Shown: piece after piece, positions 15,278 to 60,537 of the stretch
Position numbering within the stretch: position 1 is the stretch's first letter
How the letters are laid out: the number at the start of each line of letters is the position of its first letter
Notes under the pieces: generated by a model
What the model was told of the DNA's origin: nothing
Seen by the model: only the letters and a program-made list of their open reading frames with translations
Database searches by the model: none
Virus record (IMG/VR): IMGVR_UViG_3300028805_000115
Length of the DNA stretch: 64,000 nucleotides
Direction: 5' to 3' (one strand)
Source of the DNA: an uncultured virus (IMG/VR IMGVR_UViG_3300028805_000115)
Lineage: Duplodnaviria > Heunggongvirae > Uroviricota > Caudoviricetes
Made by a program: the position numbers and the translations under genes

Positions 15278-16498
15278 TCATTTTACCGAAATTTTTTTGT
15301 AACCATTTACCTGTATCTTGCCAAGCTTCATAGACAATCCACAAGCTTTGGAAAACGTGCTGTATTCTGCGGTATATCTGTTTATCTTGACTTGATATTC
15401 CTTAGCTAATTCTATGTCTCCTGCGCTTTGAGCGGCTATCTGACCATCTTTAGCTTGTCTTATCTTTGTTTCAAACATTCTCTGTCGCTGTGTGCATTCA
15501 TACATTGTGAGATGTTTACCACTTGGAAGTGTATATCCTTCTTCATTCTTCTTGAGTATTTCCTGTAGCTGTTTATCTGTGTACGTCTGACCTTCAACAC
15601 CTATAACTATTGATATCGCAAAGTGCCTACAGTTTAAAGTACCAACAGCTCTCTCAAAGCCTTGATACTCTCTGCCTTGTACATCTTTGAAGTTCTCAGC
15701 ATTCTGCATCTTCTCAAATTCAGCTTTTGAATACTGGTGTCCCTGCATCTCCGCATGGTCAGGAGCAGGATTCATATGTACTGAAATTTCAACGCCATCA
15801 GCTCCAAACTCTTCACCGACTATATTCTGCATCTGCTGGTTTATAGCCCGCATTCCGTCTTGAAGATTTCGCCTGACAGCTGTATCAAGTCTCTGTGCGT
15901 ATGTTCTTCCACTCTCTGTATTGTAGACTACATAACGGATACCATTCTCGCATAACTGCTTTAAAGTGTTGTGCATCGCTGTTCTATAATCAACTCCGCC
16001 AGATGCGGCCTGCACTGCTTCATCAACGATTCTTTGATATGTTCTGGCAACATTTGTTGGTATGAACCTCTTAGGGTTTTTAGGGTCTCTGACCATAAAA
16101 GCCTGTGCTTTCGCGATGTTCTTATAACTGTCTGATGTCTGACGTGCCATAGCTTCTACGCGTCTTTTTAACACTGTGTTTTCATCATACGGTATATATG
16201 GCTTTTTTCTAAAATCGTAGAATGGCTTTGCGCTTCTGTATGCATCTTTAGCAACAAATCTTACCAGATTCTGTATATCTGCAACCTGTAAAGCTGTAAG
16301 TCTTGCAAGCTCTTCCATTATCTTCTTAGCATCTGCACCTGTGTTTCTTAGATTAATCAGTGTTTGGACATCAGAAGGTAGCACCTCGCCAACTTCCTTT
16401 ATGCGCTGTGCTATCTTCTTGATTAACCAAGTATTTATTCGCTGTTGTCGATTGATTATAGGCTCTATGAGTCTGTTTAATGCGTCATCTGATAACAT
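15278..16498 (-). CDS. Minor capsid protein (MuF / phage minor capsid 2 family)
   Basis: AVRRN...H..QG...LNCRH...QRQR.FE.KIR; follows portal; no toxin extension. Confidence 0.85.
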   Translation of the reverse strand: MLSDDALNRLIEPIINRQQRINTWLIKKIAQRIKEVGEVLPSDVQTLINLRNTGADAKKIMEELARLTALQVADIQNLVRFVAKDAYRSAKPFYDFRKKPYIPYDENTVLKRRVEAMARQTSDSYKNIAKAQAFMVRDPKNPKRFIPTNVARTYQRIVDEAVQAASGGVDYRTAMHNTLKQLCENGIRYVVYNTESGRTYAQRLDTAVRRNLQDGMRAINQQMQNIVGEEFGADGVEISVHMNPAPDHAEMQGHQYSKAEFEKMQNAENFKDVQGREYQGFERAVGTLNCRHFAISIVIGVEGQTYTDKQLQEILKKNEEGYTLPSGKHLTMYECTQRQRMFETKIRQAKDGQIAAQSAGDIELAKEYQVKINRYTAEYSTFSKACGLSMKLGKIQVNGYKKISVK

Positions 16499-16508
16499 GC
16501 GCTATACC

Positions 16509-18176
16509 TCACTGATTAAACCCCTTGTTGAAATTATTTCCGCTGTTGCCTTCGTTATTGCTCTCCATAATCATATCGTTTTCCGCGCTCTGCATGTTCT
16601 GTTTATCGATTTCCTGAAGTGCCTGCTCTGCCTGTCTCTTTGTCTCTCCAAAGTACCACATTCTGACTTCTACCTTACTTGCAAGACCAGCATTCATGAG
16701 TGATAATCTCTTATTCAGCTCGGTATCTACATCCACCAAGATTGAATCGTCCCACTCAAATGATGCATCATAATCTCCATCAGGTGTGATATTATAAAGG
16801 TCACAGTATGCATTCATGATATAAATCACATCACGCAAAGTATCTTCCAATGAATCCTGTATGTCTTTATTCGTCTGGAATGCTCTCTGCTTCATGGATT
16901 TAATCTCTGTTGCTGTCTTAGCTTCCATTGTAGCATCTGAAAGACTGCCTCGCCCTAATCCGGAGACATCTTCAATCCTCATGAGTATTGCATTAAGTCC
17001 TTGTATATAAGACGAATCACGCAATGTAGGCGCGTAAGGCTGGTATGTATCAGACTCGCCCAAGTCGATGGTTCTGAAGAGTCTTGCCTGTAATTGGTTC
17101 ATCACGGTCTGACCACCACCCTTGCCATCCTCTCTAAACTGCATAGCATCACGGTCAATATCGATTGCCATCTCGCCCGCTTCATATTCCCACAGCATTC
17201 TTGAATACTGCATGTCAGCATCTTTGATGAGGTCTTTTACTCTGCTATAGCCAGATACACCAAGCGGTGATGATGTATCAATCGTATTAGCTTCAGGCAT
17301 TCTGAAGTATGCAAAAAGCGGTTTCTGTATGTTCTTGATGGTCACTGTCTCTTTTAAGTCTTTCCAGCTTGATACACTCGACAGAGGAACTTCCTGACCT
17401 AAATCTAAGCCGTTTAAATCATCTTGATTACCTTTGTTTGTCGTAGACTTAAAAGCTTTATTGATGATGGTCACTGTATTATTCTTCCACTTGTGATATT
17501 CAAGTCTCCTGAAAATGATGTCTTTTTCTGTCTGAGTCTGTATAAAAGCGGCCTCTGTAATCTGTCCGCTTGCGTCAAATGCTAACGGGAAAAAGCTGTC
17601 TGCCTGTATGAAGTCAAATTCAATCTGCCAGTCTGTGTCTTTGCCATCTACTGCATTAGCTACAAGATATGGCTTGATAACAAGTCCACCCTTTGCTATA
17701 CCATACTCTAACTGCTTTCTAAGCTGTTTCTTTAGCTTCTTGTATTGCTCATTAAGGTATTCAGCCCTCTGAGTATTTCCAATGGCTCTATCCTCTGTAA
17801 TTGTCTTAGGCTCTAAGCTCGGCATGATATTGCCATACTCATCAGGTTCAGGTTCTTTGTATTTAGGATTAGGTATTTCGACTTCTTCAGTAGGAGTGGT
17901 TATCTCACTTTCAAATTCAAGCAAAGCTGTTCTTGCTTTCTCGCTTGCTATCATTGCAGGTAAGCCAAGCGATGCTATTCTGACGGGGTCCTGTAATGTA
18001 GGCTCTTTCAGCCAAGGAGCTTGATTCTTGTACATATCAGCCCAAAGCTGTATAGCGTGTTCCATCTGTGATGACATAATAGGTGTTACGTGTAAAGTCT
18101 GTTCGATTGTCCTTGCTCCTATCATCTTCTTCAGTATCTCCTTTAATTTTGATATTATACTTGACCAAAATGCCAT
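16509..18176 (-). CDS. Portal protein (A118/SPP1 type)
   Basis: 555 aa; PEAN...SPLGVS, KTATEI, WDDS motifs. Confidence 0.9.
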   Translation of the reverse strand: MAFWSSIISKLKEILKKMIGARTIEQTLHVTPIMSSQMEHAIQLWADMYKNQAPWLKEPTLQDPVRIASLGLPAMIASEKARTALLEFESEITTPTEEVEIPNPKYKEPEPDEYGNIMPSLEPKTITEDRAIGNTQRAEYLNEQYKKLKKQLRKQLEYGIAKGGLVIKPYLVANAVDGKDTDWQIEFDFIQADSFFPLAFDASGQITEAAFIQTQTEKDIIFRRLEYHKWKNNTVTIINKAFKSTTNKGNQDDLNGLDLGQEVPLSSVSSWKDLKETVTIKNIQKPLFAYFRMPEANTIDTSSPLGVSGYSRVKDLIKDADMQYSRMLWEYEAGEMAIDIDRDAMQFREDGKGGGQTVMNQLQARLFRTIDLGESDTYQPYAPTLRDSSYIQGLNAILMRIEDVSGLGRGSLSDATMEAKTATEIKSMKQRAFQTNKDIQDSLEDTLRDVIYIMNAYCDLYNITPDGDYDASFEWDDSILVDVDTELNKRLSLMNAGLASKVEVRMWYFGETKRQAEQALQEIDKQNMQSAENDMIMESNNEGNSGNNFNKGFNQ

Positions 18177-18846: not shown

Positions 18847-19443
18847 CTATTTTCTCCTGTCCATCTCTGTCTGACTGCCTTTTCGTAACCAATTGTAATA
18901 ATACATCAAAGCATCAAAGTCCACTACTCTCAATCGCTTTGAAAACATTTGCCTATGAAATTGCACATCACTCTTGGAATGAATGTTTCCAAATCTTGAA
19001 TCGCCAATGCTCGTGCGTTTCCAAGCTTTGTTCCATGTCGCTATCCAATATTCGCCATCGGGTCTTTTAGGTCTTGCATATAACCAATTCTTAAATATAA
19101 AACTGAAGCATAAAATATCGGGTTCGTTTTCTTCTCTTAACTTTCGGTCAAGCTCTGTCAATACATATTCGTGAAGCCACCAGTCATCATCATCCATAAA
19201 AAGTATATAATCGCCTTTAGCTTCTTCAATACCTCTATTTCTCGTTGGTCCATCACAGTGATTTTCAACTGTAAATACTTTGTCTGTGTATTCTCTGGCT
19301 ATGCTTTCAGTGTTGTCCGTACAGCTGTCACATACGATTATCAACTCGAAATCACGAAAAACCTGCATTTTTATGCTTTCCAACGCTTTTCGGATATGGT
19401 TTTCAGAGTTGAACGCTGGAATTATGATGCTAAATCTCATCAA
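18847..19443 (-). CDS. Glycosyltransferase family 2
   Basis: SIIIPAFN, ELIIVCD, RNRGI, FMDDDD, WNK motifs. Confidence 0.9.
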   Translation of the reverse strand: MMRFSIIIPAFNSENHIRKALESIKMQVFRDFELIIVCDSCTDNTESIAREYTDKVFTVENHCDGPTRNRGIEEAKGDYILFMDDDDWWLHEYVLTELDRKLREENEPDILCFSFIFKNWLYARPKRPDGEYWIATWNKAWKRTSIGDSRFGNIHSKSDVQFHRQMFSKRLRVVDFDALMYYYNWLRKGSQTEMDRRK

Positions 19444-20753
19444 TTACCCTTTCTGTTAGCGTATTTCTGTAATGCATAACGCACCGCATCTATTGAATGG
19501 TTGTTTTCGTCTGGATATGCACTTATGAAATTTCCATCTCTGTCCTGCTCGTACTCATACTGCGTAAACTCTTTGTAGGTCTCGGGACATCTTCTTGCAT
19601 CGATGTAAATATGATTTAAGCCCTGCAACCACTTTATGCCATATCGTACTGAATCTGGTCCTTTGTCAGCACCTCGAATGAATGCTCCGTATGCTTTAAA
19701 GTCTGCGATTGATTTTTCCTCTGCGCTGTCGGCTATCACCAGCTCATCCTTGCGTAGTTTCTTCAAGTCATTGTATAAAATGTCGAATACGACCTGATTT
19801 CGCGTTTTTACTGTGTTGTACTCATCAAAGATGTATAAATCCAAGTGCTTGATATCAAAATGCATTCTGACAAATCGGAACGGGTCTCTTGCAAATCCCC
19901 AATCGATGCCATTGTATATCTCACTGAATGTCTGCCACATTGGCACTTTTTTGTCCTCAATTCCCATGCCGTTGTAATGAGGTACAAGCTTAGTCATATC
20001 CAAATCGCAAGCATTGGGAAATACATCTCCGCCTGTTCCAACAGGAACTCCCATGTATTCATGCTCATACGCTCTCGGATTCTTTTCTTTCAGTTCTTCA
20101 GCTTCTTCAAGAAATTCTGGTCCTAACCATTCTTCTGGCACTTGTAAATATGTTGTTCGTATAACAAGTGTTGACTTCTTAGGTCTCAGCTCGTATTCTT
20201 CTACAAATTCATTAGCCCAATTATTCTTTGAGATAGGCGGGTTAAATGTTCTGAAATCCCAAAACAGCTGACCACCACGCTTTGTAGACTGTGTTACTTT
20301 TCTAAGCTCGCGCTCGCCCGCGAATTGGTCAAGCTCCTCAAACCAGTTTATCCCGATATATCCGAATGTCGGCTTTATTGATTTTACTTTGTCTGGGTCA
20401 TCAAGTCCCATGAAGTAGATTTTTTGACCTGTTGGTTTATATTCGATTGGTGTACTGTAATTTTTTGGTATACTGAATAAATCCTGTAACCCTAATTGAT
20501 AGATTCCCCAAACGACCTGTGGAAATATCGATGTCTGAATCGTATTGGCTATCTTTCTAAAACAGACTGCATGTATATTTGAATATGCTGTGATTAACAG
20601 CGGTATTGCTATTCCACCAATGAATGATGACTTTGTGCTTCCTCGTCCGCCCGGCAGTATATATTTGCTATGTCGATGGTCCAATATATCTTCTAAGACA
20701 TCGAAAAAGTCAGGTATTATGCACTCACGGAGAGGTATATCAATTTGTGGCAT
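19440..20753 (-). CDS. terL: Terminase large subunit (PBSX type)
   Basis: GGRGSTKS Walker A, WFEE Walker B, TFNPP, GIDWG, NHSIDAVRY. Confidence 0.95.
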   Translation of the reverse strand: MPQIDIPLRECIIPDFFDVLEDILDHRHSKYILPGGRGSTKSSFIGGIAIPLLITAYSNIHAVCFRKIANTIQTSIFPQVVWGIYQLGLQDLFSIPKNYSTPIEYKPTGQKIYFMGLDDPDKVKSIKPTFGYIGINWFEELDQFAGERELRKVTQSTKRGGQLFWDFRTFNPPISKNNWANEFVEEYELRPKKSTLVIRTTYLQVPEEWLGPEFLEEAEELKEKNPRAYEHEYMGVPVGTGGDVFPNACDLDMTKLVPHYNGMGIEDKKVPMWQTFSEIYNGIDWGFARDPFRFVRMHFDIKHLDLYIFDEYNTVKTRNQVVFDILYNDLKKLRKDELVIADSAEEKSIADFKAYGAFIRGADKGPDSVRYGIKWLQGLNHIYIDARRCPETYKEFTQYEYEQDRDGNFISAYPDENNHSIDAVRYALQKYANRKGN

Positions 20754-20807: not shown

Positions 20808-21968
20808 TTAGATGTTATACTGTTTTTTAAGTTTTAAAACGTCCTGCATATAATCATCAATCTGCTTTTCATTAAGTGTGAACTCGCCAGATGACTCGCT
20901 GAAGCGTTTCCATGATGCTTGGTCTTTTACGCTTAGACCTTTTCCCGCTTTGCTCTCCGCTGTAAGTCTCAGATTCCTGCCAGCATTGTCATATACTTTA
21001 AGTGAATCAACAACACCAGACAGCTTTTGTACCGCATCATATGCTTTTCTATGTGCGGCTGTCAGCTGATGCAATGGAACAAGTCTTTTCTGCTTCACGA
21101 ATCTGTCCAAGCTGTTCTGTCTTACCGTTTTGAAATCACTGTAAACAAACGACATCTCGGTCTTGTAACCAGCTTTCTTTGCGGCATCTAAAAGCTTATA
21201 CACGCCACCACCTGTAGCTGTGCCGTCATACAATGTCGGATAATTGTTCTGTAAAGCTGTTCCATATATCTGCTTTGCAAGTGCTGAAGATTCCTCATGA
21301 TAGTATGCTGTAAGTCTTTCGTCCATCTCTTTTCCATCAGCTTTAGCAAGTGCCTTTTTGATATCGTCAGGGTCAATCACCATCGGGCTTTTGTTCTGTG
21401 AGTAGAAATCTCCAATATTCTTACTGAATACACCCTTGCCAGATGCGGCACCACCACCCGTAAACATCGCAACTTTTTCCTCGCCCGGCGCATACGGCTT
21501 ATGCTCTTTGAAGTAATCTTCCATAATCTGTCTGTGTACTTCAGCACGTTCTGGAGACAGATTGCCGTTTTTATCAAGATGGTCAGCAAATGACTGTTCG
21601 CCAGCCTGTCCTGCTTCTGATGTGTCTATCTTATCAACTTCCTTGCCTTTAAACATCATCTTACCATTGCTTATAGTGACTTTATCGCCCTTAGACAATT
21701 CGTCTCTGTATTTAGACTCATTATTTAGCTTTTCCGCGTCTGTTTTGTTCTTAGCTATATCATTCTCTTTCTTCTGCGCGTCAAGCGTGTTTCCTGTCAT
21801 TTTAGAGCTATTGGAAGCTGTATTTGATTTGTTGCTCTGCGTAGACTTTTTTCCTGTTGCTTCTGCTACTCTGTTTTTGATGTCTGCGTCAGTATCACCA
21901 GCATATATCGGAATATGTTTTCCGCCCTTTAGTGTTATCCATCTTTCGGGTTCGCGTTCTTTTGCCAT
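20808..21968 (-). CDS. Zeta-toxin-like P-loop kinase with WIT leader
   Basis: GGGAASGKG P-loop, IDPDDIK, HEES, DGT, R...R.VP, YDN motifs of the zeta/PezT family. Confidence 0.8.
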   Translation of the reverse strand: MAKEREPERWITLKGGKHIPIYAGDTDADIKNRVAEATGKKSTQSNKSNTASNSSKMTGNTLDAQKKENDIAKNKTDAEKLNNESKYRDELSKGDKVTISNGKMMFKGKEVDKIDTSEAGQAGEQSFADHLDKNGNLSPERAEVHRQIMEDYFKEHKPYAPGEEKVAMFTGGGAASGKGVFSKNIGDFYSQNKSPMVIDPDDIKKALAKADGKEMDERLTAYYHEESSALAKQIYGTALQNNYPTLYDGTATGGGVYKLLDAAKKAGYKTEMSFVYSDFKTVRQNSLDRFVKQKRLVPLHQLTAAHRKAYDAVQKLSGVVDSLKVYDNAGRNLRLTAESKAGKGLSVKDQASWKRFSESSGEFTLNEKQIDDYMQDVLKLKKQYNI

Positions 21969-21982
21969 GATGCTGTCTCCTC

Positions 21983-22237
21983 TCACATTAATCCGTATTG
22001 TATCGCTGAAGCTGTTTCATATAATGCCAGATTGTAATATTTGAACTCTGCATCATTCTTGAACGCTGACCGTTCACGCGCCTGCTTCTTTGATGTGGCA
22101 TCACTATTGGCCATATTGCTTATCTGTGTCAATCTGTCATCGTCTACCTGCTTTGCGTCTGCATCAGTAAACTCTGCACCTTTGGCTTTACTCTTGTAAT
22201 ATGCCAGCTCTTTCTCATTCAGTTTCAGTTTTGCCAT
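21983..22237 (-). CDS. Small protein, candidate antitoxin of the zeta-like kinase
   Basis: 84 aa with GGAGG RBS directly upstream of the zeta gene; role inferred from position. Confidence 0.45.
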   Translation of the reverse strand: MAKLKLNEKELAYYKSKAKGAEFTDADAKQVDDDRLTQISNMANSDATSKKQARERSAFKNDAEFKYYNLALYETASAIQYGLM

Positions 22238-22832
22238 CGCTCTTCCTCCAATCAAGCTTTATAGTCATTACATTATCAGGAACACCTTTAACTCTGTTAT
22301 CGATATCGACTGTTCTCTTGGCAAGCTCCTGACCAGCTTTTATTCTGTCTGCCAGTGTAGCATCTAAACCAAATTGGTCTTTGATTTCACCATTCATGAC
22401 TTTGGTCAAAAACTGCATAACATCTGTAGCTGTCGCGATTGCATGTTCCTCTTTCTTTAAATTGATTCGGTCGATTTCCTTCTTCACCTTCTCCAGTGTC
22501 AACAAACGCGATGCTTGCTTACACGCTGTCGTTTCCTTATATCCTGCTCTTATGGCTGACTGCATTCCATTGCTTGTTTCTGCATAATAGATACAGAATA
22601 ATTTCTGCTGTTGGTTAAGTACATCTGGACAGTTTCTTTTCTGCTTGAATCCTTTTTGTCTCTGTACTCTTGGTTTCTTTTCTTTTGTCGGTTTATCTTC
22701 TTCTTTGCTGTATGTATCCTGTAATAGTTTTAATGTGCTTCTATGTGTGATTTTGGAGCTTTTCGATGTGCTTTTCTTTTTTATGGATTTTCCCGCCGAT
22801 TTTTTTGTTTTCTTCTCAGTGTCTTTATCCAT
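22215..22832 (-). CDS. terS: Terminase small subunit
   Basis: LNQQQKLFC..Y....NGMQSAIRAGY...ASRLL; DRIKAGQELAKR. Confidence 0.9.
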   Translation of the reverse strand: MDKDTEKKTKKSAGKSIKKKSTSKSSKITHRSTLKLLQDTYSKEEDKPTKEKKPRVQRQKGFKQKRNCPDVLNQQQKLFCIYYAETSNGMQSAIRAGYKETTACKQASRLLTLEKVKKEIDRINLKKEEHAIATATDVMQFLTKVMNGEIKDQFGLDATLADRIKAGQELAKRTVDIDNRVKGVPDNVMTIKLDWRKSDGKTETE

Positions 22833-22850
22833 TATATCAGCTCCTTTGTA

Positions 22851-23021
22851 TTAATACTTCTTGCCTGAAAGTCTTTCCCATTCTTTCTTGGCTCTTGATT
22901 TACCCTGTGGTGTACTCATGCTGTCTATAAGCTCTTTTGCTTCTGCTCTTGACATCTTAGCCATTGCGGCATCGCTGTCTTTCTTGTTAGGATATTTCTT
23001 GATTAATTCATCTAACGTCAT
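22851..23021 (-). CDS. Small basic protein, candidate partner of 23024-23671
   Basis: 56 aa, AAGGAG RBS, starts 2 nt after the upstream stop. Confidence 0.5.
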   Translation of the reverse strand: MTLDELIKKYPNKKDSDAAMAKMSRAEAKELIDSMSTPQGKSRAKKEWERLSGKKY

Positions 23022-23023
23022 TT

Positions 23024-23671
23024 TTACTTTCTCCTTCCTGTTCCGCCTGTCTTTATTTCTCCGTATCGCCAATCAGCGTTTCCGGCTTTCCAATCCCATA
23101 TCGATATCTGATTATTTGCTTTTGCATATGCTATTGCCTGCTCTCTGTTTGCACAATGGAATGATATCTCGGGTGTTCCTTCAAACTTGCCAGCATATGT
23201 CTTGCCATTACTCGACAGCTTCAAGCATTCATTGACTTTAGCCTGATACTGGTCATTCGTGTAATTATCTCCAATCTGACAGAATGTTACCTGATAACCA
23301 TCTTCAAAGCTTACAGGCTTTAATGTATCAAGGTCGTATGTATTATCGCCCTCATACTTATCGGATTCAAGCTCTTTTATCTTTGCTTTATGTACTTCCT
23401 GTATCGGCCTGTTTTCTTCAGCTTTTCGCGCTTCTGCTTCTTTCTGATTCCGTGCTATCTGCTGGTCTTTCTCATCTTCATTTTTGGTGATGTTCTTCTG
23501 GTCACCTGACTGCTTGGTCGCTGTCTTTTTATCAGCTGATTTATTCGATGCTGTCTTTGTCTTGTTCTGTTTTGCTACAAAGCTCTTGACTGCATCAGCT
23601 TTAGACTGACCTTTCATGATAGGAACCCTGTTGCCGTTTACAGTTATCCACTGTTCTACCTCTTTAGACAT
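23024..23671 (-). CDS. Hypothetical protein with WIT leader and unknown C-terminal domain
   Basis: WITVNGNRVPI leader; C-domain ...NNQISIWDW. Confidence 0.7.
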   Translation of the reverse strand: MSKEVEQWITVNGNRVPIMKGQSKADAVKSFVAKQNKTKTASNKSADKKTATKQSGDQKNITKNEDEKDQQIARNQKEAEARKAEENRPIQEVHKAKIKELESDKYEGDNTYDLDTLKPVSFEDGYQVTFCQIGDNYTNDQYQAKVNECLKLSSNGKTYAGKFEGTPEISFHCANREQAIAYAKANNQISIWDWKAGNADWRYGEIKTGGTGRRK

Positions 23672-23672
23672 A

Positions 23673-23858
23673 TCATTCTACCTCTTCCAAATCATCTTCT
23701 CCTACTGCATAGACTTCATCCAAATCTGACATTACTCCCCATGCGTCAAGTTCTCTGTCATATCCACGTACTTCATAAATCTTGCCTTTTTCAAAAGCTC
23801 CATTTGTTTCCCCGATGTACTTAGCTTTACTTCCTTTGTGTAACATTTTCACCCTCAC
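23673..23858 (-). CDS. Small acidic SH3-like protein, candidate immunity protein
   Basis: KYIGET...KGKIYEV...D; GTGA overlap with upstream gene. Confidence 0.55.
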   Translation of the reverse strand: MRVKMLHKGSKAKYIGETNGAFEKGKIYEVRGYDRELDAWGVMSDLDEVYAVGEDDLEEVE

Positions 23859-24388
23859 TTTCTGTCCTCAAGATTCTTCTCGTGAATCTTGATGAACGCT
23901 TCACGAACATATCCATCTTTACCCTGTACCCAATGTACTTCTCTATCTAACACTTTAGAGCCGTTTGTTATCTTAGCGAATCCAGCACAATGTTGCCAAT
24001 CTTCTGGATTTCTTCCGCTTTGCGGATATCTCTTTGCGTACTTCTCAGCATCTCTAAATACTTTAGAGCAACCCTTACCTGCAAATACATAAGCGCCTGT
24101 AATGCTTGTACCTTCTTTAAATCTGAATCTCTCTTTTGTCTTGAGATGCAATACATCAGAAAACTTATTGGCATCTTTAGCGGATATATCGTTAAGACGT
24201 AAACGCTTAGGCGGGTCTTGTTTGTTTCTTTTATCTGCTTCAGCTTTACTCTTTGACATCTGACTGTTTTTTCTTCTGTCATCTTCCATCATCTTAGTAA
24301 ATCTGCCAACAGCGTCATCTTTTGACTCACCTTCATATATTGGAACATGATGTCCATTGACTGTTATCCACTCTGTTATATTCTTCAT
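23855..24388 (-). CDS. Hypothetical protein with WIT leader and putative toxin/nuclease domain
   Basis: WITVNGHHVPI leader; FAGKG...RDA...W.H..G...EVHW C-domain. Confidence 0.65.
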   Translation of the reverse strand: MKNITEWITVNGHHVPIYEGESKDDAVGRFTKMMEDDRRKNSQMSKSKAEADKRNKQDPPKRLRLNDISAKDANKFSDVLHLKTKERFRFKEGTSITGAYVFAGKGCSKVFRDAEKYAKRYPQSGRNPEDWQHCAGFAKITNGSKVLDREVHWVQGKDGYVREAFIKIHEKNLEDRK

Positions 24389-42911: not shown

Positions 42912-43961
42912 TTAAAATAATGATTTTCTTTTGATTGTATTAACTCTCTTTGCTGTCTTACCGTGTAAGCATTCAGCAATAGCAATACCATACTTATATG
43001 CTACAAGACTTGGAACTCCTGAGCATCTGTTATACTGCTCCTTTAATTCGATTTCATCCGGAAAATAGAAATCATCTCCAACTGTCTGTAGTCTTAAATG
43101 CTCTCGTACCGATAAACGTCTTGGAAAATCTGCATTACCTCTTTTAGCATGTGCCTTTGAGTAATCATCAATATTCAGATATGGTTCGGGATATAACAAA
43201 GCTGATTGAATCGATGATAACACAGTTTTAGCTGGTTCATCCCAGTTACTCTGTCTAAAATTTGCACTGAATTTTGAAAACAGATTCTCCTTCATTTTCT
43301 CAGTATTATGATTTTTGACATCTTTGATTGTCTTATCTCTCAAATCATAAAAGGCATCTCTCTGTGTAGTTCTTCCAAAAAGCATCTCTTTAGGAATTTC
43401 AAACTCATACGGAATATCGTCTCTGATTGCAACCATATATACGCGCTCACGCTCTTGAGGAACGCCAAGATGCCATGAATTTACAATCTTCCAATACGTA
43501 TGATATCCAAAGCTTTCAATCTGCTTTAAGAACTCTTTGAAAACTGTTAAGCTGTCACCCATTGCAATGCCTGCCACGTTTTCAAAAAACAAAGCCTTTG
43601 GCTTACACCCAGAAAACAATCTAATTGTCTCAGCTAACAAATCTCCGTATTTTTCATCGTTTGTAAGTCGCCTCGCACCACACACTGAAAATGGCTTACA
43701 AACAGGCGTAGCTATCATCAAATCATGCTTTGGAATATCTTCAATCTTAATCTTTCGTATATCTTCACACACTGCATGATTACCGATATTAAGATTATAC
43801 GTCTTTACAGCGTCAGTGTCATTATCAACACCCCAAAGCATGTTATATCCTGCGTGTTTGAATCCATAAGCTCCTATGCCTGCACCACAGAATAAGTCAC
43901 AAGCTGTTAAACCATTTAAGTCAAGCTGTATCAGCTTATTTGATTGCAATGTATCCGACAA
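42912..43961 (-). CDS. C5-cytosine DNA methyltransferase homolog, candidate DNA carboxymethyltransferase
   Basis: Motif I DLFCGAG, IV TPVCKPFS, VI ENV, VIII QERER, IX RRLSVREHLRLQ; atypical motif X QYNRCSGVP. Confidence 0.85.
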   Translation of the reverse strand: MSDTLQSNKLIQLDLNGLTACDLFCGAGIGAYGFKHAGYNMLWGVDNDTDAVKTYNLNIGNHAVCEDIRKIKIEDIPKHDLMIATPVCKPFSVCGARRLTNDEKYGDLLAETIRLFSGCKPKALFFENVAGIAMGDSLTVFKEFLKQIESFGYHTYWKIVNSWHLGVPQERERVYMVAIRDDIPYEFEIPKEMLFGRTTQRDAFYDLRDKTIKDVKNHNTEKMKENLFSKFSANFRQSNWDEPAKTVLSSIQSALLYPEPYLNIDDYSKAHAKRGNADFPRRLSVREHLRLQTVGDDFYFPDEIELKEQYNRCSGVPSLVAYKYGIAIAECLHGKTAKRVNTIKRKSLF

Positions 43962-44664
43962 AGTTCATCCACCTCCAAAATACATCAATCTGTCTAAAAC
44001 CTGCCTGCTTCATCAAATCGATGTTCCAATCATTTGTCACAGGAACAAGCACGCCTTCAAGCGATAATCGCTTACGTTCTATATCATCTTTGCTGTAGCC
44101 GTTAGATTCTTTGTATGCATGATAATTCTTGATAAAAAGATTGTCAAGATATGCTGAACTTCCAAGCACTTTCTCAACGAATATAAAACAGCCATGACAT
44201 GGTGAAAGATTGTTATAAATGCTTTGTATAATCTGCTGTCGATAATTTATTGGTATAAACTGAAGTGTTAAAACGCTTGTAATAACATCATAGTGTCCTG
44301 ACGGAACTCCCTTTGTCATATCATGATTTAGTATAGTTACGCGTGAATCGTCTTTAAATCGCTCTTTTGCCTTCTCAAGCATCGGCTCTGATACATCCAC
44401 TCCTACAAAGTATCCTCTGTCGCGCTCAAATTTGCCCGTTAAGGCCGCCAACATCAATCCGTCAGAACATCCTATGTCTAAAACATGAAAAGACTGTTTT
44501 ACCGGATTGTCGTTAATCACAGAGGCAACTAAATCCGTTACGCTCTTTCTCATAACATCATACTGCGGAATTGACCTACTTAGCATATTCTCGAAACAGT
44601 CAGCAACACTCTGGTCAAATTCCCAATTAGCTTTTGGAACAACTTTATCTATCTCGTTTTTCAT
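43936..44664 (-). CDS. cmoA: Carboxy-S-adenosylmethionine synthase (CmoA family)
   Basis: WEFD..VA..F..M..RSIPQY, LDIGCS.G, LTLQF, EK, K..NGYS...I..KR..LE.V, GF......W.NF; collinear with E. coli CmoA as I recall it. Confidence 0.85.
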   Translation of the reverse strand: MKNEIDKVVPKANWEFDQSVADCFENMLSRSIPQYDVMRKSVTDLVASVINDNPVKQSFHVLDIGCSDGLMLAALTGKFERDRGYFVGVDVSEPMLEKAKERFKDDSRVTILNHDMTKGVPSGHYDVITSVLTLQFIPINYRQQIIQSIYNNLSPCHGCFIFVEKVLGSSAYLDNLFIKNYHAYKESNGYSKDDIERKRLSLEGVLVPVTNDWNIDLMKQAGFRQIDVFWRWMNFVGYIAIK

Positions 44665-49176: not shown

Positions 49177-49374
49177 TTAAATTTTTTTCTTGAGACCTAA
49201 AAAGTAGTCTCTTGACATAGCTCCAATATCTTTGAAAGTCTTGATATTCCAACGATATTCAGTGATTATCTTGTTATCTACCTCTTCTCGTATTCGTTCT
49301 CTCGCCTTTAGTCCTGCTTTGTCCATATCTGTAGCAAGTATTAATTCTCTGCATGGAAGTTCTCTCAGCTGTTC
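49177..49374 (-). pseudogene. Displaced 3' end of a primase gene
   Basis: EQLRELPCRELILATDMDKAGLKARERIREE aligns with AQIKKLPCRKVILATDKDDAGKKARIRLREE of 50178-51137. Confidence 0.8.
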
Positions 49375-50176
49375 TACCCTTATGATAACCTTCTGGAACA
49401 TCTTCTGTAGTTCTCAAACGTATATTATTCGTTCCATTTGTCACCCACATCCAAATACCTCGTTCTCCCTTATTATAAGGCTCTTTTCCCTTCATTGGGT
49501 TTTGCCAACCACTTGCATATCTTTCTCTTAACAGTTGTGATTTTAAGTTTCTTGTTTCTTCTGATTGCTTTGTACCTACTAATTTTTGCCTTATCTTTTC
49601 TTTTGTTTCTTCTGTATGACAACCTGTAAAACCAGAACTTCCTTTCTTAAACATTCCACCATTTCTAAAATCAGGATGTTCTCTATGAAATTTTTTCTTT
49701 GCTTCACTTCTTGTTTTATCTCGTTCTGGTGTATGTAAATATCCTTCAATAAAACCGCTGTCTAAATACTTTTGTAATTCAAATTGTTTCACATATTTTT
49801 CGATTTCGCCATTATTTATAACAGTGCGTCCAGACATAGACACTTTCATTTTCTCCCGTCTATGTTCTTTTTCAGCATCAGTTAATCCAGAAAATGTATC
49901 TCCACCGTCTCCGCCTTTAGAGATATTATATCCAACAAACATATTATCACTATGATGTACATGAATATAAATCTTCTCATATCTATTTATGTCTGAACGA
50001 GTTTCACACCACTTTAATAATTCTGTCTTAAAATTATCAATTCCGTATTTTTCAAATGCTCTACGAATTAACTTACCACTACCGTGATATTCTTTATCAA
50101 ACACTTGTGACTTATGCTGACCAATATAAATCTTTCCATTTACTAAATTAGTTGTTTTATAAATATATCCATACAT
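49274..50176 (-). CDS. Free-standing GIY-YIG homing endonuclease with NUMOD3-like repeats
   Basis: GYIYKTTNLVNGKIYIGQH, YHGSG, GYNISKGG, HTEETKEKI; AT-rich. Confidence 0.9.
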   Translation of the reverse strand: MYGYIYKTTNLVNGKIYIGQHKSQVFDKEYHGSGKLIRRAFEKYGIDNFKTELLKWCETRSDINRYEKIYIHVHHSDNMFVGYNISKGGDGGDTFSGLTDAEKEHRREKMKVSMSGRTVINNGEIEKYVKQFELQKYLDSGFIEGYLHTPERDKTRSEAKKKFHREHPDFRNGGMFKKGSSGFTGCHTEETKEKIRQKLVGTKQSEETRNLKSQLLRERYASGWQNPMKGKEPYNKGERGIWMWVTNGTNNIRLRTTEDVPEGYHKGRTAERTSMQRINTCYRYGQSRTKGERTNTRRGR

Positions 50177-57084: not shown

Positions 57085-57155
57085 TCAAGTGTCTTATCTC
57101 TCATCGACAAGAACATTATATAACACGTTTAATCATTTGTCAACACTTTTTTGAA
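57085..57155 (-). promoter_or_regulatory. Repeated early promoter element, copy 8
   Basis: TTGACA (57143-57138)-N17-TATAAT (57120-57115). Confidence 0.85.
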
Positions 57156-57495
57156 AAAATTTTTGTAAATCGTCCAAAGTCTTGTAAATATGCGCTCTTT
57201 CATCAGCTGAATGGGTTGAAATGTGCAATGCAATTATAAATTCTTTTATCTCTTTGCACAAATCACGCATCAGATTTACAACAGCTCTTTCTCCTGCATT
57301 TCCAAGCTCATATTCGCGTTTTATGTTCGCGTATGAAGAATATGTCGGCAAAATATCTAAAAGCTCTTTTTGAGTGCTTTCCGTGCGTTGTAGATGGTCT
57401 CTGACAATGTATAAAGATGCTAACTTCTGGCATGAGTCATAAGAGTTATCCTGTAACAGTCTTTTTATCTCGTTGTTTATATCATCTGTATTCAT
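57133..57495 (-). CDS. Hypothetical protein
   Basis: 120 aa with GGAGG RBS. Confidence 0.6.
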   Translation of the reverse strand: MNTDDINNEIKRLLQDNSYDSCQKLASLYIVRDHLQRTESTQKELLDILPTYSSYANIKREYELGNAGERAVVNLMRDLCKEIKEFIIALHISTHSADERAHIYKTLDDLQKFFQKSVDK

Positions 57496-57507
57496 ATATC
57501 CTCCCTA

Positions 57508-57538
57508 AAAAAGGCACCTCATCTCTGAAGTGCCTTTA
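57508..57538 (-). terminator. Intrinsic terminator
   Basis: AAAGGCAC...GTGCCTTT stem plus U-tract. Confidence 0.65.
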
Positions 57539-57541
57539 AAA

Positions 57542-58096
57542 TTATTTAATCTTCATGATGCAGTCTTTAATCGCCTGTCGTTCATGTTCGCTCATGGTAT
57601 CATCCATCAGTGTCTCTAACTTCTGTACCATCTTCTTTCTGGAAGCGTCTCTGCTATATTCGTTGGAATTTCCTTCTGCATTTGACCATCCTCTATCCTG
57701 ACTATTACGAAAGTTATCTCTGCTTTCGTTATATCGTCCGTCGCCATCTCCGTCTCGACCTCTACGTGCATTTGACTGCCCCTCATAAGAGTTGTTAGAC
57801 TGACCGTCATATGTATTTCCCATCCAAGGTCTCATGTTAGATGTGCCTTCCATTGAATAAGGATATCTGGCATTGGACATACCGCCAAAACTGTAATCCA
57901 TGCTCTGTCCGCCATCTTTCATCCTATCTTCCATTTCGTGCTTTTCAATACACTTGTCAACCACTTTAAGTGAAGATGTAAGTTTGTACAGATTATCCAG
58001 ACTATCCTTATTTAAGTCATGTTTTCTTTCGATTTCTCCAATCTCCCGTTCAAGCATATCACGGAGATTTTCATACATTTGAATTTTGTGTCCCAT
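57542..58096 (-). CDS. Hypothetical protein with low-complexity G/S/R/N centre
   Basis: RRGRDGDGDGRY; helical termini. Confidence 0.65.
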   Translation of the reverse strand: MGHKIQMYENLRDMLEREIGEIERKHDLNKDSLDNLYKLTSSLKVVDKCIEKHEMEDRMKDGGQSMDYSFGGMSNARYPYSMEGTSNMRPWMGNTYDGQSNNSYEGQSNARRGRDGDGDGRYNESRDNFRNSQDRGWSNAEGNSNEYSRDASRKKMVQKLETLMDDTMSEHERQAIKDCIMKIK

Positions 58097-58109
58097 AATA
58101 TTCTCCTTT

Positions 58110-58577
58110 CTATGCTATTCTTGATACTGTCATATTAGCGTTCTGAACTAATATAGCAGGTGCCGGGTCAGTGGGTGTTGCGCCCTCAGAAGTATTCTCT
58201 GCTGAAACATTGAAGCAACATCCCCTTGGTACATCGATTGTAGCGGTACTTGTTACATTAAAGAAATTCTCCTGTGTTGGAGGTTCTGTGGCAACTTCCG
58301 CGGGTGTTACTATTGCTCTGCTTGTTAAGATGGGTTCACCATCCAATGCTAAAGCAACACTGATGGGACCTGCTGTACCTGTAGAAGGTACAGCAATATT
58401 CCCATTAAATGTCACCTGATAACGTGCAAAACAATTATTCGTAATACCACGGAGAGTTACAATACCACTTCCGTTTCTGTGGTATACATAACCTTTATTA
58501 CATCCAATACGTGTATTGAGTGTAACAGGCTGATTAGCAAGTACAGTCTGTACTTCGTTTTTTGTAAACTCCGCCAT
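58110..58577 (-). CDS. Beta-rich protein (BclA-C/C1q-like)
   Basis: HRNGSG...YQVTFNGNI...NAN.TV.R. Confidence 0.55.
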   Translation of the reverse strand: MAEFTKNEVQTVLANQPVTLNTRIGCNKGYVYHRNGSGIVTLRGITNNCFARYQVTFNGNIAVPSTGTAGPISVALALDGEPILTSRAIVTPAEVATEPPTQENFFNVTSTATIDVPRGCCFNVSAENTSEGATPTDPAPAILVQNANMTVSRIA

Positions 58578-58590
58578 AGCTTATACCTCC

Positions 58591-59460
58591 TTAGAAATTG
58601 CCATTACCGCATCCACAGCCACATCCGCCAATGTTGTTATTTGACAGATTGGTAGCGCAAGTGAAAATAGGTGAACGGCCGAAAACGGGAGTAGTGTCTA
58701 CGGGACAGGTGGCAAGGCGGTTATAAATACCGTCTACGATTCTCTGGTCCTGAGCAATCTGTGAAGCCTGACCTCTTGCGTACAAGTTCTCCTGACGGAG
58801 CTGTGCGATTTCATCATTCTTAGCATCAATCTTGTCCTGGTATCTCTGGTCGCTCATAGCTTTAAAGCCGTCATTGATAGCATTAAGGATAGCCTGAGTG
58901 TTCTGAGTATCAGTTGCTCTTGTTGAGCAAGCTTCTGTAGCAATGGTGTACTTCACATCATTTGTTGCAAGTCTGTTTTCACAGCAACAGTCAGCTAACT
59001 TAGACTGGACACCATTAAAACCAGCATTCATTGCGGTCAGCTGATTAAAAGCAGTCTGCATATTTGCCATCTGGCGTGCATTAGCACCCTGCTCAACACC
59101 AGCAAAACCATTAGCAATAGCCATCTGAGTGCTGTTAAATCCATTACAAAGCTGAGTTGAAATATCAGCAATGTTGTCTCTGATGCCGTTTATACCATCA
59201 TTGAGCATTGCATCACGGAAACCATTGTTGGTGTTAGCGTTGATGTTATTCTGTCCGTTGAGTAACCAAGGGAAGTCATATCCTAACTGTGCTCCTCCGA
59301 AACCGCCGAAGCCTCCGCCCCAACCTCCGTTGCAACAAAGCAGTAAAAGTATGAGCCACCAGCCATCACCGCCGAATCCTCCACCCATACTACCTGAATA
59401 TGCAGGACCTACGGGCATGTAGAAGCCATTGCCTACGCCATTTTCCATTGAAAGTGACAT
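58591..59460 (-). CDS. Gly/Asn-rich membrane-anchored coiled-coil protein with CCC motif
   Basis: GWWLILLLL TM, ADCCCE, C-terminal GCGCGC. Confidence 0.7.
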   Translation of the reverse strand: MSLSMENGVGNGFYMPVGPAYSGSMGGGFGGDGWWLILLLLCCNGGWGGGFGGFGGAQLGYDFPWLLNGQNNINANTNNGFRDAMLNDGINGIRDNIADISTQLCNGFNSTQMAIANGFAGVEQGANARQMANMQTAFNQLTAMNAGFNGVQSKLADCCCENRLATNDVKYTIATEACSTRATDTQNTQAILNAINDGFKAMSDQRYQDKIDAKNDEIAQLRQENLYARGQASQIAQDQRIVDGIYNRLATCPVDTTPVFGRSPIFTCATNLSNNNIGGCGCGCGNGNF

Positions 59461-59546
59461 AATTTTTTCCTCCTATAAATTTTTTAGGTTAATGACTACT
59501 TCAAGATGTAGTCGTCTATAACAAAAGTCCTGCGCACTGACTTTTA

Positions 59547-59792
59547 TCATCTAAATAGATTCTGAATTTGTGGGTTATTTCTCATCTGCATGGCAGTATT
59601 TACCTGCTGTTGAGATACCTGACCTGTATTCAATAAATGTTGTACTATATCCTGAGGCTGATTAATATTTTGAGGTATATTGTATCTACTGGATACTATT
59701 TGCATAGGATTCTGTTTGAACTGTGCTATCATCTGTAACATATTAGCATTCACCAATTCTACCATCTCCCTCCGGTCTTTTTCGGTTGTCAC
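59547..59792 (-). CDS. Gln/Asn-rich small protein
   Basis: NP...P..IVQHLLNTGQVSQQQ; start uncertain. Confidence 0.6.
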   Translation of the reverse strand: MTTEKDRREMVELVNANMLQMIAQFKQNPMQIVSSRYNIPQNINQPQDIVQHLLNTGQVSQQQVNTAMQMRNNPQIQNLFR

Positions 59793-60156
59793 CCTTTAGG
59801 GCAAGTATCTCTTCCTGTAAATCCATCACTTTATTTACCAGGTCCGCCAAATCATTCTTGAGGGCATATTTGTTGGCATCCATTGCCGGTAACGTCTTTT
59901 CATCCGTTTCTTCCTTTATCAATTTATATCTCTCAAAAACAGGTGTATCAAATTGATTGAACCCCATTGTCTTTGTATAGATATAGGGTTTATTTTCGTC
60001 TTTGAATATTACAGAGTATCCGGGTCCAACAGGATACATTCTGGCTTCATTCTCATTTCGAACACTTAAAAGAGTGCCTGTTTGAATAGTTTGCTGTTGT
60101 GCGGCCTGTTGCTGTTGATAATAAGGTTGATAAGACTGCTGATAATAATTATTCAT
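59743..60156 (-). CDS. Hypothetical protein with Gln/Tyr-rich N-terminus
   Basis: EA..YPV.PG.S...D......Y.K. Confidence 0.65.
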   Translation of the reverse strand: MNNYYQQSYQPYYQQQQAAQQQTIQTGTLLSVRNENEARMYPVGPGYSVIFKDENKPYIYTKTMGFNQFDTPVFERYKLIKEETDEKTLPAMDANKYALKNDLADLVNKVMDLQEEILALKGDNRKRPEGDGRIGEC

Positions 60157-60537
60157 TTATACCTCCTTTTTCCAATAGTAAATTGGAATTTCATTTCCAC
60201 TATCCCAGGTGTCAAAGTAATTTCCGTCTTTGACAGCTACTACATGTGTACCAGTCGCTAAAAGATATTCACCCTGTGGATAGTCTCTTGTAAAATCTTT
60301 TATTGTATAACAATCAGGACAGGTGTTAGGGATTGCTCTACGTTGAAAACCATTTTGATGTAAATACGCTCCCCAAACTGCATTAGAAGATGGCATGTCG
60401 TGCATCATGAATCCTTGTAGAACTACGTTCATATACGCTGTTTCCCAATCCTGCTTCATCAACAGACTTATTCCACGTATCACGCAATCTCCCGTCAGAT
60501 TGTTTGATGGATTTGGATTGATGTAGATGTACGCCAT
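60157..60537 (-). CDS. Putative papain-like (Cys-His-Asp) peptidase
   Basis: NPNP...GDCVIR, THVVAV, YFDTWDSG. Confidence 0.5.
   Translation of the reverse strand: MAYIYINPNPSNNLTGDCVIRGISLLMKQDWETAYMNVVLQGFMMHDMPSSNAVWGAYLHQNGFQRRAIPNTCPDCYTIKDFTRDYPQGEYLLATGTHVVAVKDGNYFDTWDSGNEIPIYYWKKEV

What the first reader, a model, noticed from the sequence alone, without database searches (positions are those of the whole stretch)
20808..24388. Three unrelated effector-like proteins share one N-terminal leader, each with a small partner ORF: candidate virion-loaded polymorphic effector system
Seen: ORFs 23855-24388, 23024-23671 and 20808-21968 begin WITVNGHHVPIYEGESKDDA, WITVNGNRVPIMKGQSKADA and WITLKGGKHIPIYAGDTDADI (motifs at 24338-24370, 23618-23650, 21906-21941). 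After variable linkers they share a second block (RKNSQMSKSKAEADKRN / EKDQQIARNQKEAEARK / KKENDIAKNKTDAEKLN), then carry three different C-terminal domains, one a zeta-like kinase. Each abuts a 56-84 aa ORF. All are interleaved with terS and terL, and this phage's MuF has no toxin extension. Known: polymorphic toxins pair a conserved trafficking domain with variable toxic tips and adjacent immunity genes, and MuF toxins do so in phage heads. Inference: the WIT leader is a head-packaging or ejection tag for interchangeable cargo aimed at host defences or rival phages.
Basis: partly seen in the sequence, partly recalled or inferred. Interest (0 to 1): 0.78.

Follow-up and report, generated by a model that had tools for sequence, protein, structure and literature searches.

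The report
Hairpin tag on swappable phage cargo
Three unrelated proteins encoded among this phage's DNA-packaging genes start with the same short hairpin, an apparently undescribed tag found on over a thousand groups of similar proteins, which probably loads enzymes into the virus head for delivery into the next host; loading and activity have not been measured.

Summary
Confirmed. The three ORFs share a W-I-T-x-N-G-x-H-I-P-I leader (a β-hairpin plus helix in the model) and carry unrelated tips. The leader marks 1,328 protein clusters; 237 tips fall into 101 groups. 117 of 145 tagged genes have a head or packaging gene in their locus, and the tag also sits behind MuF, portal and scaffold domains.

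All three tips occur elsewhere fused to head proteins. A close relative has swapped tip 2 and its partner as one block. Partners track tips, but only 31 of 106 tagged genes have one, and the kinase's partner lies upstream.

New lead: tip 2 weakly resembles T3-type SAM lyase (Z 4.6, catalytic Gly/Glu/Gln in register). That points to counter-defence rather than killing.

Best reading (0.6): a portable head-loading tag on cargo that is held inactive by cognate partners. These are not MuF toxins, but work like them. The tag is absent from Pfam, PHROGs and NCBIfam, and six paper searches did not find it. This scan earlier reported sister tags on other DNA. Packaging, binding and toxicity are untested.

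The parts
23855..24388 (-). Cargo protein 1 (177 aa): WIT hairpin (aa 4-18), helix (aa 23-55), beta-rich basic tip (aa 60-177) with invariant H133, E150... see alignment; tip also found on a minor capsid (MuF2-size) protein. Activity unknown; nuclease-like toxin is an inference
24338..24370 (-). WIT core motif, copy 1
23673..23846 (-). Partner 1 (57 aa, acidic, net -8); follows tip-1 genes in the relatives inspected; candidate inhibitor
23024..23671 (-). Cargo protein 2 (215 aa): WIT leader and linker (aa 1-~80), ferredoxin-like tip (aa 85-215) with G161, F163, E168, Q188 in the register of SAM-lyase catalytic residues; candidate SAM-lyase-like enzyme
23618..23650 (-). WIT core motif, copy 2
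22851..23021 (-). Partner 2 (56 aa); follows tip 2 under four different leaders and is fused to it in protease fusions; candidate inhibitor
22858..23432 (-). Exchangeable cassette (tip 2 plus partner 2), replaced by an unrelated tip and partner in L114/L127
22215..22832 (-). Terminase small subunit (context)
21983..22237 (-). Partner 3 (84 aa), upstream of the kinase; similar ORF precedes the kinase in five other loci; candidate antitoxin-like inhibitor
20808..21968 (-). Cargo protein 3 (386 aa): WIT leader, linker, zeta-like P-loop kinase (Walker A at aa 171-179, invariant D201)
21906..21941 (-). WIT core motif, copy 3
19440..20753 (-). Terminase large subunit (context)
16509..18176 (-). SPP1-type portal, no WIT copy (context)
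15278..16498 (-). Short MuF2 minor capsid protein, no toxin extension, no WIT copy (context)

Best explanation
The WIT hairpin is a portable ~20-residue tag that brings an attached domain into the assembling head, from which it is delivered with the DNA into the next host. It does for free-standing cargo what fusion to MuF, portal or protease does in other phages. Steps: (1) the cargo genes lie in the packaging cluster and are made late [position shown; timing inferred]. (2) The small cognate partner binds the tip and keeps it inactive in the producing cell [co-inheritance shown; binding inferred]. (3) The hairpin docks the cargo inside the prohead; the untagged partner stays out or is stripped [inferred; docking site unknown]. 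(4) In phages with a DUF2213 scaffold the tag is probably freed by cleavage after an x-x-Asp site, leaving it 4-10 residues from a new N-terminus, as it is by translation in SPP1-type phages like this one [pattern shown; cleavage inferred]. (5) After ejection the tips act on host metabolites or defences: tip 2 probably destroys SAM or a SAM derivative and so disables SAM-dependent restriction or BREX; tip 3 phosphorylates a small molecule; tip 1 is a probable nuclease-type toxin [all inferred]. (6) Tip-partner cassettes are exchanged by recombination in the constant leader-linker DNA [one clean exchange shown].
For: 1,328 clusters at 50% identity match the 34-position profile at E<=1e-3, 250 at 1e-10. 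237 regions behind the tag form 101 BLAST groups, 68 of them singletons. Named tips are the MuF/polyvalent repertoire: ADP-ribosyltransferases, papain-fold Tox-PL1, PBECR1, LPD3, MuF_C, zeta. 117 of 145 tagged proteins have a head/packaging gene in the locus, 112 within 5 kb, 116 on the same strand. The tag lies between structural and effector parts in MuF (L053, L057), portal (L060, L116, L123, L040) and DUF2213 (L047, L102) fusions. DUF2213 is the Pa193 virion scaffold gp24. Each window tip has a head-fused relative: tip 1 on a 451-aa minor capsid protein (E 4e-8), tip 2 on prohead protease and portal, tip 3 on cyanophage PSS2 minor head protein (E 3e-15). SPP1-type loci have a Met within 13 aa of W in 39 of 39 leaders; DUF2213-type loci have W within 13 aa of the called start in 1 of 31, and an xx[DN] motif 3-11 aa upstream in 27 of 31 against 20% background. 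Swap: 247/268 identical, then 284/575, then 73/78. 21 of 22 partner-similar pairs also have similar tips, against 34 of 465 pairs overall. The phage encodes two SAM-dependent methyltransferases, a reason to inhibit its own SAM lyase.
Against: No virion proteomics, binding or activity data. Three leader queries found no convincing match among 50,697 phage records, so no cultured phage is at hand to check. Only 31 of 106 N-terminally tagged genes have an adjacent ORF of <=100 aa (control 112 of 757; crude gene caller, no ORF called for 42), far below the 89% (<150 aa) reported for MuF toxins. The tag occurs in phages with different portals, scaffolds and capsids, so a single protein docking site is hard to name. 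75 of 104 and 112 of 131 tagged proteins have no Pfam family, so most tips are not known to be effectors. C-terminal copies exist, which a strict N-terminal signal would not allow. The xx[DN] motif was defined after seeing these sequences, some 'MD' may be true starts, and the same regex did not separate capsid proteins of the two classes (5 of 12 against 3 of 4). DUF2213 versus prohead protease was not significant (probability 0.7). The SAM-lyase match is weak (Z 4.6, tied with GHMP kinases and Cas2; profile P 0.02-0.07).
Confidence: 0.6

Rival explanations
1. The cargo is not packaged. These are late-made toxin-antitoxin-like pairs acting in the producing cell (superinfection exclusion, lysis timing, maintenance), and the hairpin binds terminase, another phage protein or a host factor.
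For: Partner 3 lies upstream of its kinase, like epsilon-zeta systems (arrangement recalled). One representative is a WIT-TerS fusion (P0088). In this lineage the genes cluster around terS and terL. One tagged gene of record G002 lies about 62 kb from the other seven.
Against: The same tips and the tag are fused to portal, MuF, prohead protease and scaffold in other phages. The pre-sequence pattern follows the head-assembly type. Most tagged genes lack an adjacent small ORF.
Confidence: 0.17
2. The cargo is packaged, but the hairpin and basic linker bind DNA or the portal channel, so the cargo rides with the genome. The tag is an ejection or DNA-piggyback signal, not a prohead-docking signal.
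For: It explains use across unrelated head proteins. It also explains why the tag persists behind MuF or portal, which are already head-bound, and why it is repeated before each domain of polyproteins. Leader 2 is basic (net +8).
Against: Leaders 1 and 3 are near neutral (+1, +3), and many upstream flanks are acidic. The conserved residues are hydrophobic (W, I, P), which suits a protein pocket.
Confidence: 0.15
3. The leader has no protein function of note. It is a DNA-level landing pad (ribosome-binding site, start codon and homology block) through which foreign domains are captured and swapped.
For: The swap breakpoint falls right after the leader-linker. Leader-only ORFs of 35-57 aa exist (L001, L021, L074).
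Against: The amino-acid pattern is kept (W, T, G invariant in 50 of 50) across loci titled Clostridia, Melainabacteria, Bacilli, Elusimicrobia and Turicimonas. It is predicted to fold (pLDDT 86-89) and is kept in internal and C-terminal positions where no start is needed.
Confidence: 0.08

Closest known systems
MuF polymorphic toxins (Jamet et al. 2017, PMC5576092; Apk2/IapK, PMC12226406)
   Same: Constant N-terminal part, variable tip, small cognate neighbour, head-module location, overlapping tip repertoire; tips 1 and 3 occur on minor capsid/head proteins elsewhere.
   Different: No MuF domain; the phage's MuF2 is short and separate. The constant part is about 20 residues. There are up to 8 tagged genes per genome, whereas phages usually have one muf gene. 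Partners are not the rule.
Phage polyvalent proteins (Iyer et al. 2017, PMC5512222; 2022, PMC9503650)
   Same: Same effector domains (ART, PBECR, LPD3, zeta-like kinase), fusions to MuF/portal, predicted packaging and injection; large relatives carry 2-4 tags.
   Different: Here each domain is a separate small protein with its own tag. The passages I read describe no such tag; their supplementary alignments were not seen.
T4 capsid targeting sequence and internal proteins; T4 Alt; P1 DarA/DarB/DdrB
   Same: Head-loaded, injected counter-defence proteins; for T4 a short N-terminal peptide directs loading (recalled; Alt and DdrB packaging seen in PMC5512222 passages).
   Different: The T4 sequence is removed by the head protease and is lineage-specific (recalled). 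The WIT tag appears to be retained, is position-independent and spans unrelated head types.
Phage SAM lyases (T3 gp0.3, Svi3-3; PMC7877911) and SAM-AMP lyases (PMC12255297)
   Same: Tip 2: best structural match is T3 SAM lyase (Z 4.6, rmsd 3.3-3.6, 85-87 residues); Gly, aromatic, Glu and Gln in the same order.
   Different: Short loop between Gly and Glu, Phe for Tyr, 12-14% identity. It is encoded among packaging genes with a tag and a partner, whereas T3's is made first after infection (search listing of PMC8406200). The start of AcrIIIB4 shows no WIT motif.
Zeta/PezT/AvrRxo1 kinases
   Same: PF06414 above its cut-off; profile matches 1GVN (E 2e-12), PezT and AvrRxo1; small conserved gene upstream.
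   Different: Tagged N-terminus; the upstream ORF matches no epsilon family; substrate unknown.

Membership tests
MuF polymorphic toxins | N-terminal MuF domain | tested here: not met
   No MuF match in the three ORFs; MuF2 is a separate short gene
MuF polymorphic toxins | Variable C-terminal domain behind a constant N-terminus | tested here: met
MuF polymorphic toxins | Small cognate ORF immediately downstream | tested here: inconclusive
   Met for ORF1 and ORF2; upstream for ORF3; 31 of 106 family-wide
MuF polymorphic toxins | Encoded in the head/packaging module | tested here: met
   Window gene order; 117 of 145
MuF polymorphic toxins | Toxicity neutralised by the neighbour | not testable with these tools
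   Needs expression assays
MuF polymorphic toxins | Temperate phage | tested here: inconclusive
   No integrase among the 37 window proteins scanned; not all ORFs were scanned and the window may not hold the whole genome
Polyvalent proteins | Two or more effector domains in one chain | tested here: not met
   One tip per window protein; met in relatives P0151, P0001, P0009
Polyvalent proteins | Packaged and injected | not testable with these tools
   Needs virion proteomics
Phage SAM lyase (tip 2) | Ferredoxin/PII-like fold | tested here: inconclusive
   Model pLDDT 88; top match T3 SAM lyase Z 4.6, within 1 Z of GHMP kinases and Cas2
Phage SAM lyase (tip 2) | Conserved Gly, Tyr, catalytic Glu, Gln | tested here: met
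   G161/F163/E168 align with T3 G55/Y57/E68; E168 and Q188 invariant in 19 of 19; Q placed by motif and structural range only; Asp replaces Glu in remote relatives
Phage SAM lyase (tip 2) | Trimer with active sites between subunits | not tested
   No complex prediction was obtained
Phage SAM lyase (tip 2) | Converts SAM to MTA and homoserine lactone | not testable with these tools
   Needs an enzyme assay
Zeta/PezT toxin (tip 3) | P-loop kinase fold with Walker A and catalytic Asp | tested here: met
   PF06414 81.7 bits, cut-off 22.3; G172, G177, K178, D201 invariant in 7 of 7
Zeta/PezT toxin (tip 3) | Upstream epsilon/PezA antitoxin | tested here: inconclusive
   Conserved 79-85 aa upstream ORF, no family match
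Zeta/PezT toxin (tip 3) | Phosphorylates UDP-N-acetylglucosamine | not testable with these tools
   Relatives include AvrRxo1, so the substrate is open
T4-type capsid targeting sequence | N-terminal peptide removed by the head protease (recalled) | tested here: inconclusive
   No protease gene recognised among the window's head genes; candidate cut site upstream of the tag only in DUF2213-type phages

The most novel reading that the evidence does not exclude
The WIT hairpin is one of a small set of interchangeable, position-independent peptide tags that load arbitrary domains into tailed-phage heads of unrelated assembly types. It defines a large hidden arsenal of injected proteins (over 1,300 clusters, most tips unnamed). 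That arsenal includes a virion-carried SAM lyase with its own inhibitor, which would remove SAM before any phage gene is read.
Probability: 0.4. Interest if true: 0.88.

Novelty: new variant of a known kind. Interest (0 to 1): 0.74.

Why it matters
How MuF-type and polyvalent cargo get into and out of phage heads is open, and their physiological role is unestablished (PMC12226406). A 20-residue tag makes this testable with point mutants and reporter fusions. The tag also works as a search handle: it lists over a thousand clusters of candidate injected counter-defence proteins, most without a Pfam family. A packaged SAM lyase with an inhibitor would be a new way to beat restriction and BREX at the moment of DNA entry.

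Tried and rejected
Family libraries: the leader matches nothing in Pfam, PHROGs (best E 0.03 over 50 members) or NCBIfam. The PDB sequence search gave one hit, 3PSQ 'hypothetical exported protein' (E 0.002); I recall it as a sortase-like protein and treat it as a chance hairpin likeness.

Cultured phages: three leader queries found only a weak HNH-gene match (E 0.6) or nothing, and a tip-1 relative found nothing. Short tblastn queries are insensitive.

Tip 1: no PDB match by Foldseek; the VIA list was filled by the long helix, so the tip itself was barely tested. The ESM Atlas gave only unnamed clusters for tips 1 and 2. The longer-protein search for tip 1 gave one hit.

Tip 2: a sequence-profile search of the PDB missed SAM lyases; Foldseek's top rows were eIF4E at E 0.1 (rejected); DUF3293 matched 3 of 19 members at best E 0.047. 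The N-terminus of AcrIIIB4, read by eye from the supplement, has no WIT motif.

DUF2213 as a protease: His and Ser line up but the comparison is not significant; the xx[DN] regex did not separate capsid proteins of the two classes.

No complex prediction for tip 2 with partner 2 was obtained, so trimer formation and binding are open. 

RNA-library contigs cover parts of all three cargo genes (X3, X4, one sample), but such contigs can be DNA and show no strand, so expression is not claimed.

The motif-word paper search was swamped by an unrelated acronym and is weak evidence. The second block as part of the tag was rejected. 'Every cargo has a downstream immunity gene' was rejected.
Full report
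OBSERVATION. The window is most of a tailed-phage genome with all genes on the - strand. The order is ORF1 (23855-24388), partner 1, ORF2 (23024-23671), partner 2, terS, partner 3, ORF3 (20808-21968), terL, two further genes (one a glycosyltransferase), SPP1-type portal, short MuF2, scaffold, capsid. The three leaders are related (E 1e-11 to 3e-6); the tips and partners are not. No fourth copy exists in the window. The 84-aa ORF is upstream of the kinase, not downstream.

THE TAG. A structure model of ORF1 from 79 sequences (mean pLDDT 89.5) gives a hairpin at residues 4-18, one helix at 23-55 and a separate beta-rich tip. A regex finds it in 21 of 97 representatives with an immediate N-terminal tag and in 0 of 28 with a pre-sequence. 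In 50 aligned leaders W, T and G are invariant and I, H, P nearly so. The leader has no family in Pfam, PHROGs or NCBIfam.

SPREAD. Exact DNA patterns gave 41 and 137+ viral stretches and 29 genome stretches. An HMM over the 200 sequences then held found 190 distinct tagged proteins: 149 N-terminal, 33 internal or C-terminal, 8 without a start. At least 26 of the 29 genome loci were confirmed; their titles include Clostridia, Melainabacteria, Bacilli, Elusimicrobia and Turicimonas. Among 1.84 billion representatives, 1,328 match at E<=1e-3; 138 of the best 150 have a copy within the first 45 residues, and 17 listed large proteins have 2-4 copies. Five whole records carry 8, 8, 4, 3 and 1 copies.

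CARGO DIVERSITY. 237 regions behind the tag form 101 BLAST groups. I scanned 104 of the 190 locus proteins and 131 of the 150 representatives against Pfam; 29 and 19 had a family. These include Tox-PL1 (9 of 104), zeta (4 of 104), ADP-ribosyltransferases, LPD3, PBECR1, MuF_C, KTSC and Nudix. This is the repertoire that Iyer et al. describe for MuF fusions and polyvalent proteins (PMC5512222, PMC9503650; passages read). The rest have no family.

LINK TO THE HEAD. 117 of 145 tagged proteins in loci of 4 kb or more have a terminase, portal, MuF, scaffold or capsid gene in the locus, 112 within 5 kb and 116 on the same strand. The tag is internal in MuF, portal and DUF2213 fusions, between the structural part and the effector. 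DUF2213 matches Pa193 gp24 (E 5e-38), which was found inside mature virions (PMC11456595, passages). Each window tip has a head-fused relative. Tip 1 matches a 451-aa minor capsid protein by structure (E 4e-8). Tip 2 sits behind prohead protease or portal in 7 of 8 longer hits. Tip 3's best cultured match is cyanophage PSS2 minor head protein. Tip 2 also appears behind three other short tags, so tags and tips are freely recombined.

POSITION DEPENDS ON HEAD TYPE. In SPP1-type loci, like this window, 39 of 39 non-redundant leaders have a Met within 13 residues of the Trp. In DUF2213/portal_3 loci only 1 of 31 has the Trp that close to the called start, and 27 of 31 have an [AVKRNTI][MLQFVHK][DN] motif 3-11 residues upstream, against 20% at random positions. 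I read this as a maturation cut that exposes the tag near a new N-terminus. Caveats: the motif was drawn after seeing the data; some 'MD' may be real starts; DUF2213 did not match the prohead protease significantly; and the regex did not separate capsid proteins (5 of 12 against 3 of 4), although 8 of 12 show A-x-D-A by eye. C-terminal copies show that the N-terminus is not required.

PARTNERS. Partner 1 follows tip 1 in the window, L114, L127, L090, L129, L204 and L210. Partner 2 follows tip 2 under four leaders and is fused to it in four protease fusions. Partner 3 precedes the kinase in the window and five loci; a distant tagged kinase (L141) has a different small ORF downstream. Against L114 the DNA is 247/268 identical through leader and linker, 284/575 across 23432-22858 and 73/78 after it. 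The exchange thus starts after the linker helix and ends at the partner's stop codon, replacing both. Among 31 tagged genes with a small neighbour, 21 of 22 partner-similar pairs have similar tips, against 34 of 465 pairs overall; related phages make these pairs non-independent. Against a general rule: only 31 of 106 tagged genes have such a neighbour (control 112 of 757; none called for 42), whereas 89% of MuF toxins do (PMC5576092, part 2 of 6 read). Physical binding was not tested.

WHAT THE TIPS DO. Tip 3 is a zeta-like kinase; its profile matches zeta, PezT and AvrRxo1, so the substrate is open. Tip 1 has 82 relatives, 57 with a strict WIT match, and invariant His, Glu-x-His and Gln residues. 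It is basic with an acidic partner. A nuclease is my inference; no solved fold matched. Tip 2 models as a ferredoxin-like domain (pLDDT 88). Its top structural match in two searches is T3 SAM lyase (Z 4.6, rmsd 3.3-3.6, 85-87 residues), with Svi3-3 at Z 3.2-3.6. That Z is weak and tied with unrelated folds. However, SAM lyases share only Gly, Glu and Gln strictly, plus a Tyr (PMC7877911, passages). Profile alignment puts G161, F163 and E168 on T3 G55, Y57 and E68 (P 0.07 and 0.02), and E168 and Q188 are invariant in 19 of 19 close relatives. I put lyase activity on SAM or a SAM derivative at about 0.5. The phage encodes two SAM-dependent methyltransferases, which gives an inhibitor a purpose.

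MECHANISM. Most likely (0.6) the hairpin loads late-made cargo into the prohead, partners keep it inactive in the producing cell, and the cargo is ejected to blunt defence in the next. Shown: shared tag, diversity, head context, fusions, cognate partners and one cassette swap. Inferred: timing, docking, cleavage, ejection, binding and all activities. Rivals: action in the producing cell only (0.17), DNA piggy-backing or an ejection signal (0.15), DNA landing pad (0.08).

KNOWN OR NEW. It works like MuF toxins and polyvalent proteins, but fails their defining features (no MuF domain; one tip per chain). Six full-text searches did not turn up the tag; one search was swamped by an acronym, most subscription papers are not in the library, and the supplementary alignments of Iyer 2017 were not seen and could hold the motif. 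Also read as passages: PMC12226406, PMC12255297 (with supplement passages), 10.1101/2025.04.28.651013 and 10.64898/2026.08.28.747851. The T4 capsid targeting sequence and the epsilon-zeta gene order are recalled. Two sequence look-ups in this scan's notes found nothing. A word look-up found sister tags on other genomes (e1-6086990, glycine-rich; e1-5763154, lysine-flanked). I had already seen a glycine-rich tag, probably the same one; these notes are not independent support.

VERDICT. Real, widespread and apparently undescribed: a new variant of phage head-loaded effector systems. Interest 0.74.

Noticed in passing
P0152, P0153, P0157, P0158; L211-L227: Tip 2 is carried by at least three other short tags: a Gly-rich G-S-G-N-F-G-H motif, an N-x-N-H-D-x-x-x-G-R-F motif and a W-R-T-I-x-G-R-x-V-F-I variant. 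In multi-domain proteins one tag precedes each domain.
   Followed up: partly
P0151: One 330-aa protein joins the WIT leader, tip 2 and tip 1 in a single chain.
   Followed up: no
P0088: WIT leader and linker fused to a terminase small subunit domain (PF03592, E 1e-5).
   Followed up: no
L042:7991-8845, L046:7179-8042, L050, L065, L069: Loci, mostly titled Melainabacteria/Gastranaerophilales, encode a lipase-like (alpha/beta hydrolase-like) protein that ends in the WIT motif; in L042 and L046 it lies between portal and terL.
   Followed up: partly
L102:7027-11835: Three consecutive head genes carry four WIT copies: two in the DUF2213 protein and C-terminal ones on a 282-aa protein and a probable MuF-like protein.
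   Followed up: no
L001:2135-2242, L021:4932-5060, L074:4753-4926: Leader-only ORFs of 35-57 aa; remnants of swaps or free competitor peptides.
   Followed up: no
L090:12952-14450, L129:1858-2130: Effector genes (one ADP-ribosyltransferase) next to WIT genes start with a different Gly-rich M-G-[GS]-x-G leader.
   Followed up: no
L114:8662-9543, L127:1821-2702: Close relatives have a fourth WIT gene just before the portal, which this window lacks; the glycosyltransferase slot (window 18847-19443) is also replaced there.
   Followed up: no
window 42912-44664: Adjacent C5 DNA methyltransferase and class I SAM-dependent methyltransferase genes beside DNA polymerase A.
   Followed up: partly
window 49274-50176: GIY-YIG endonuclease-like gene; a 74-aa ORF at 49177-49401 resembles the primase C-terminus, which suggests an insertion with a target duplication.
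   Followed up: no
window 57133-60537: Cluster of Gly/Asn/Gln-rich genes without Pfam match in the three scanned; from recall they look like host spore-associated genes of Lachnospiraceae.
   Followed up: no
L204:4535-5155, L208: In one relative the slot-2 gene appears to be interrupted between leader and tip.
   Followed up: no
L090:5620-8350: In the 111-kb record terL is called in three pieces, followed by an HNH-like ORF; possibly introns.
   Followed up: no
capsid genes of L072, L088, L098, L054, L116, L120, L128, L142: 8 of 12 DUF2213-type major capsid proteins show A-x-D-A 30-60 residues from the start, by eye a candidate maturation site.
   Followed up: partly
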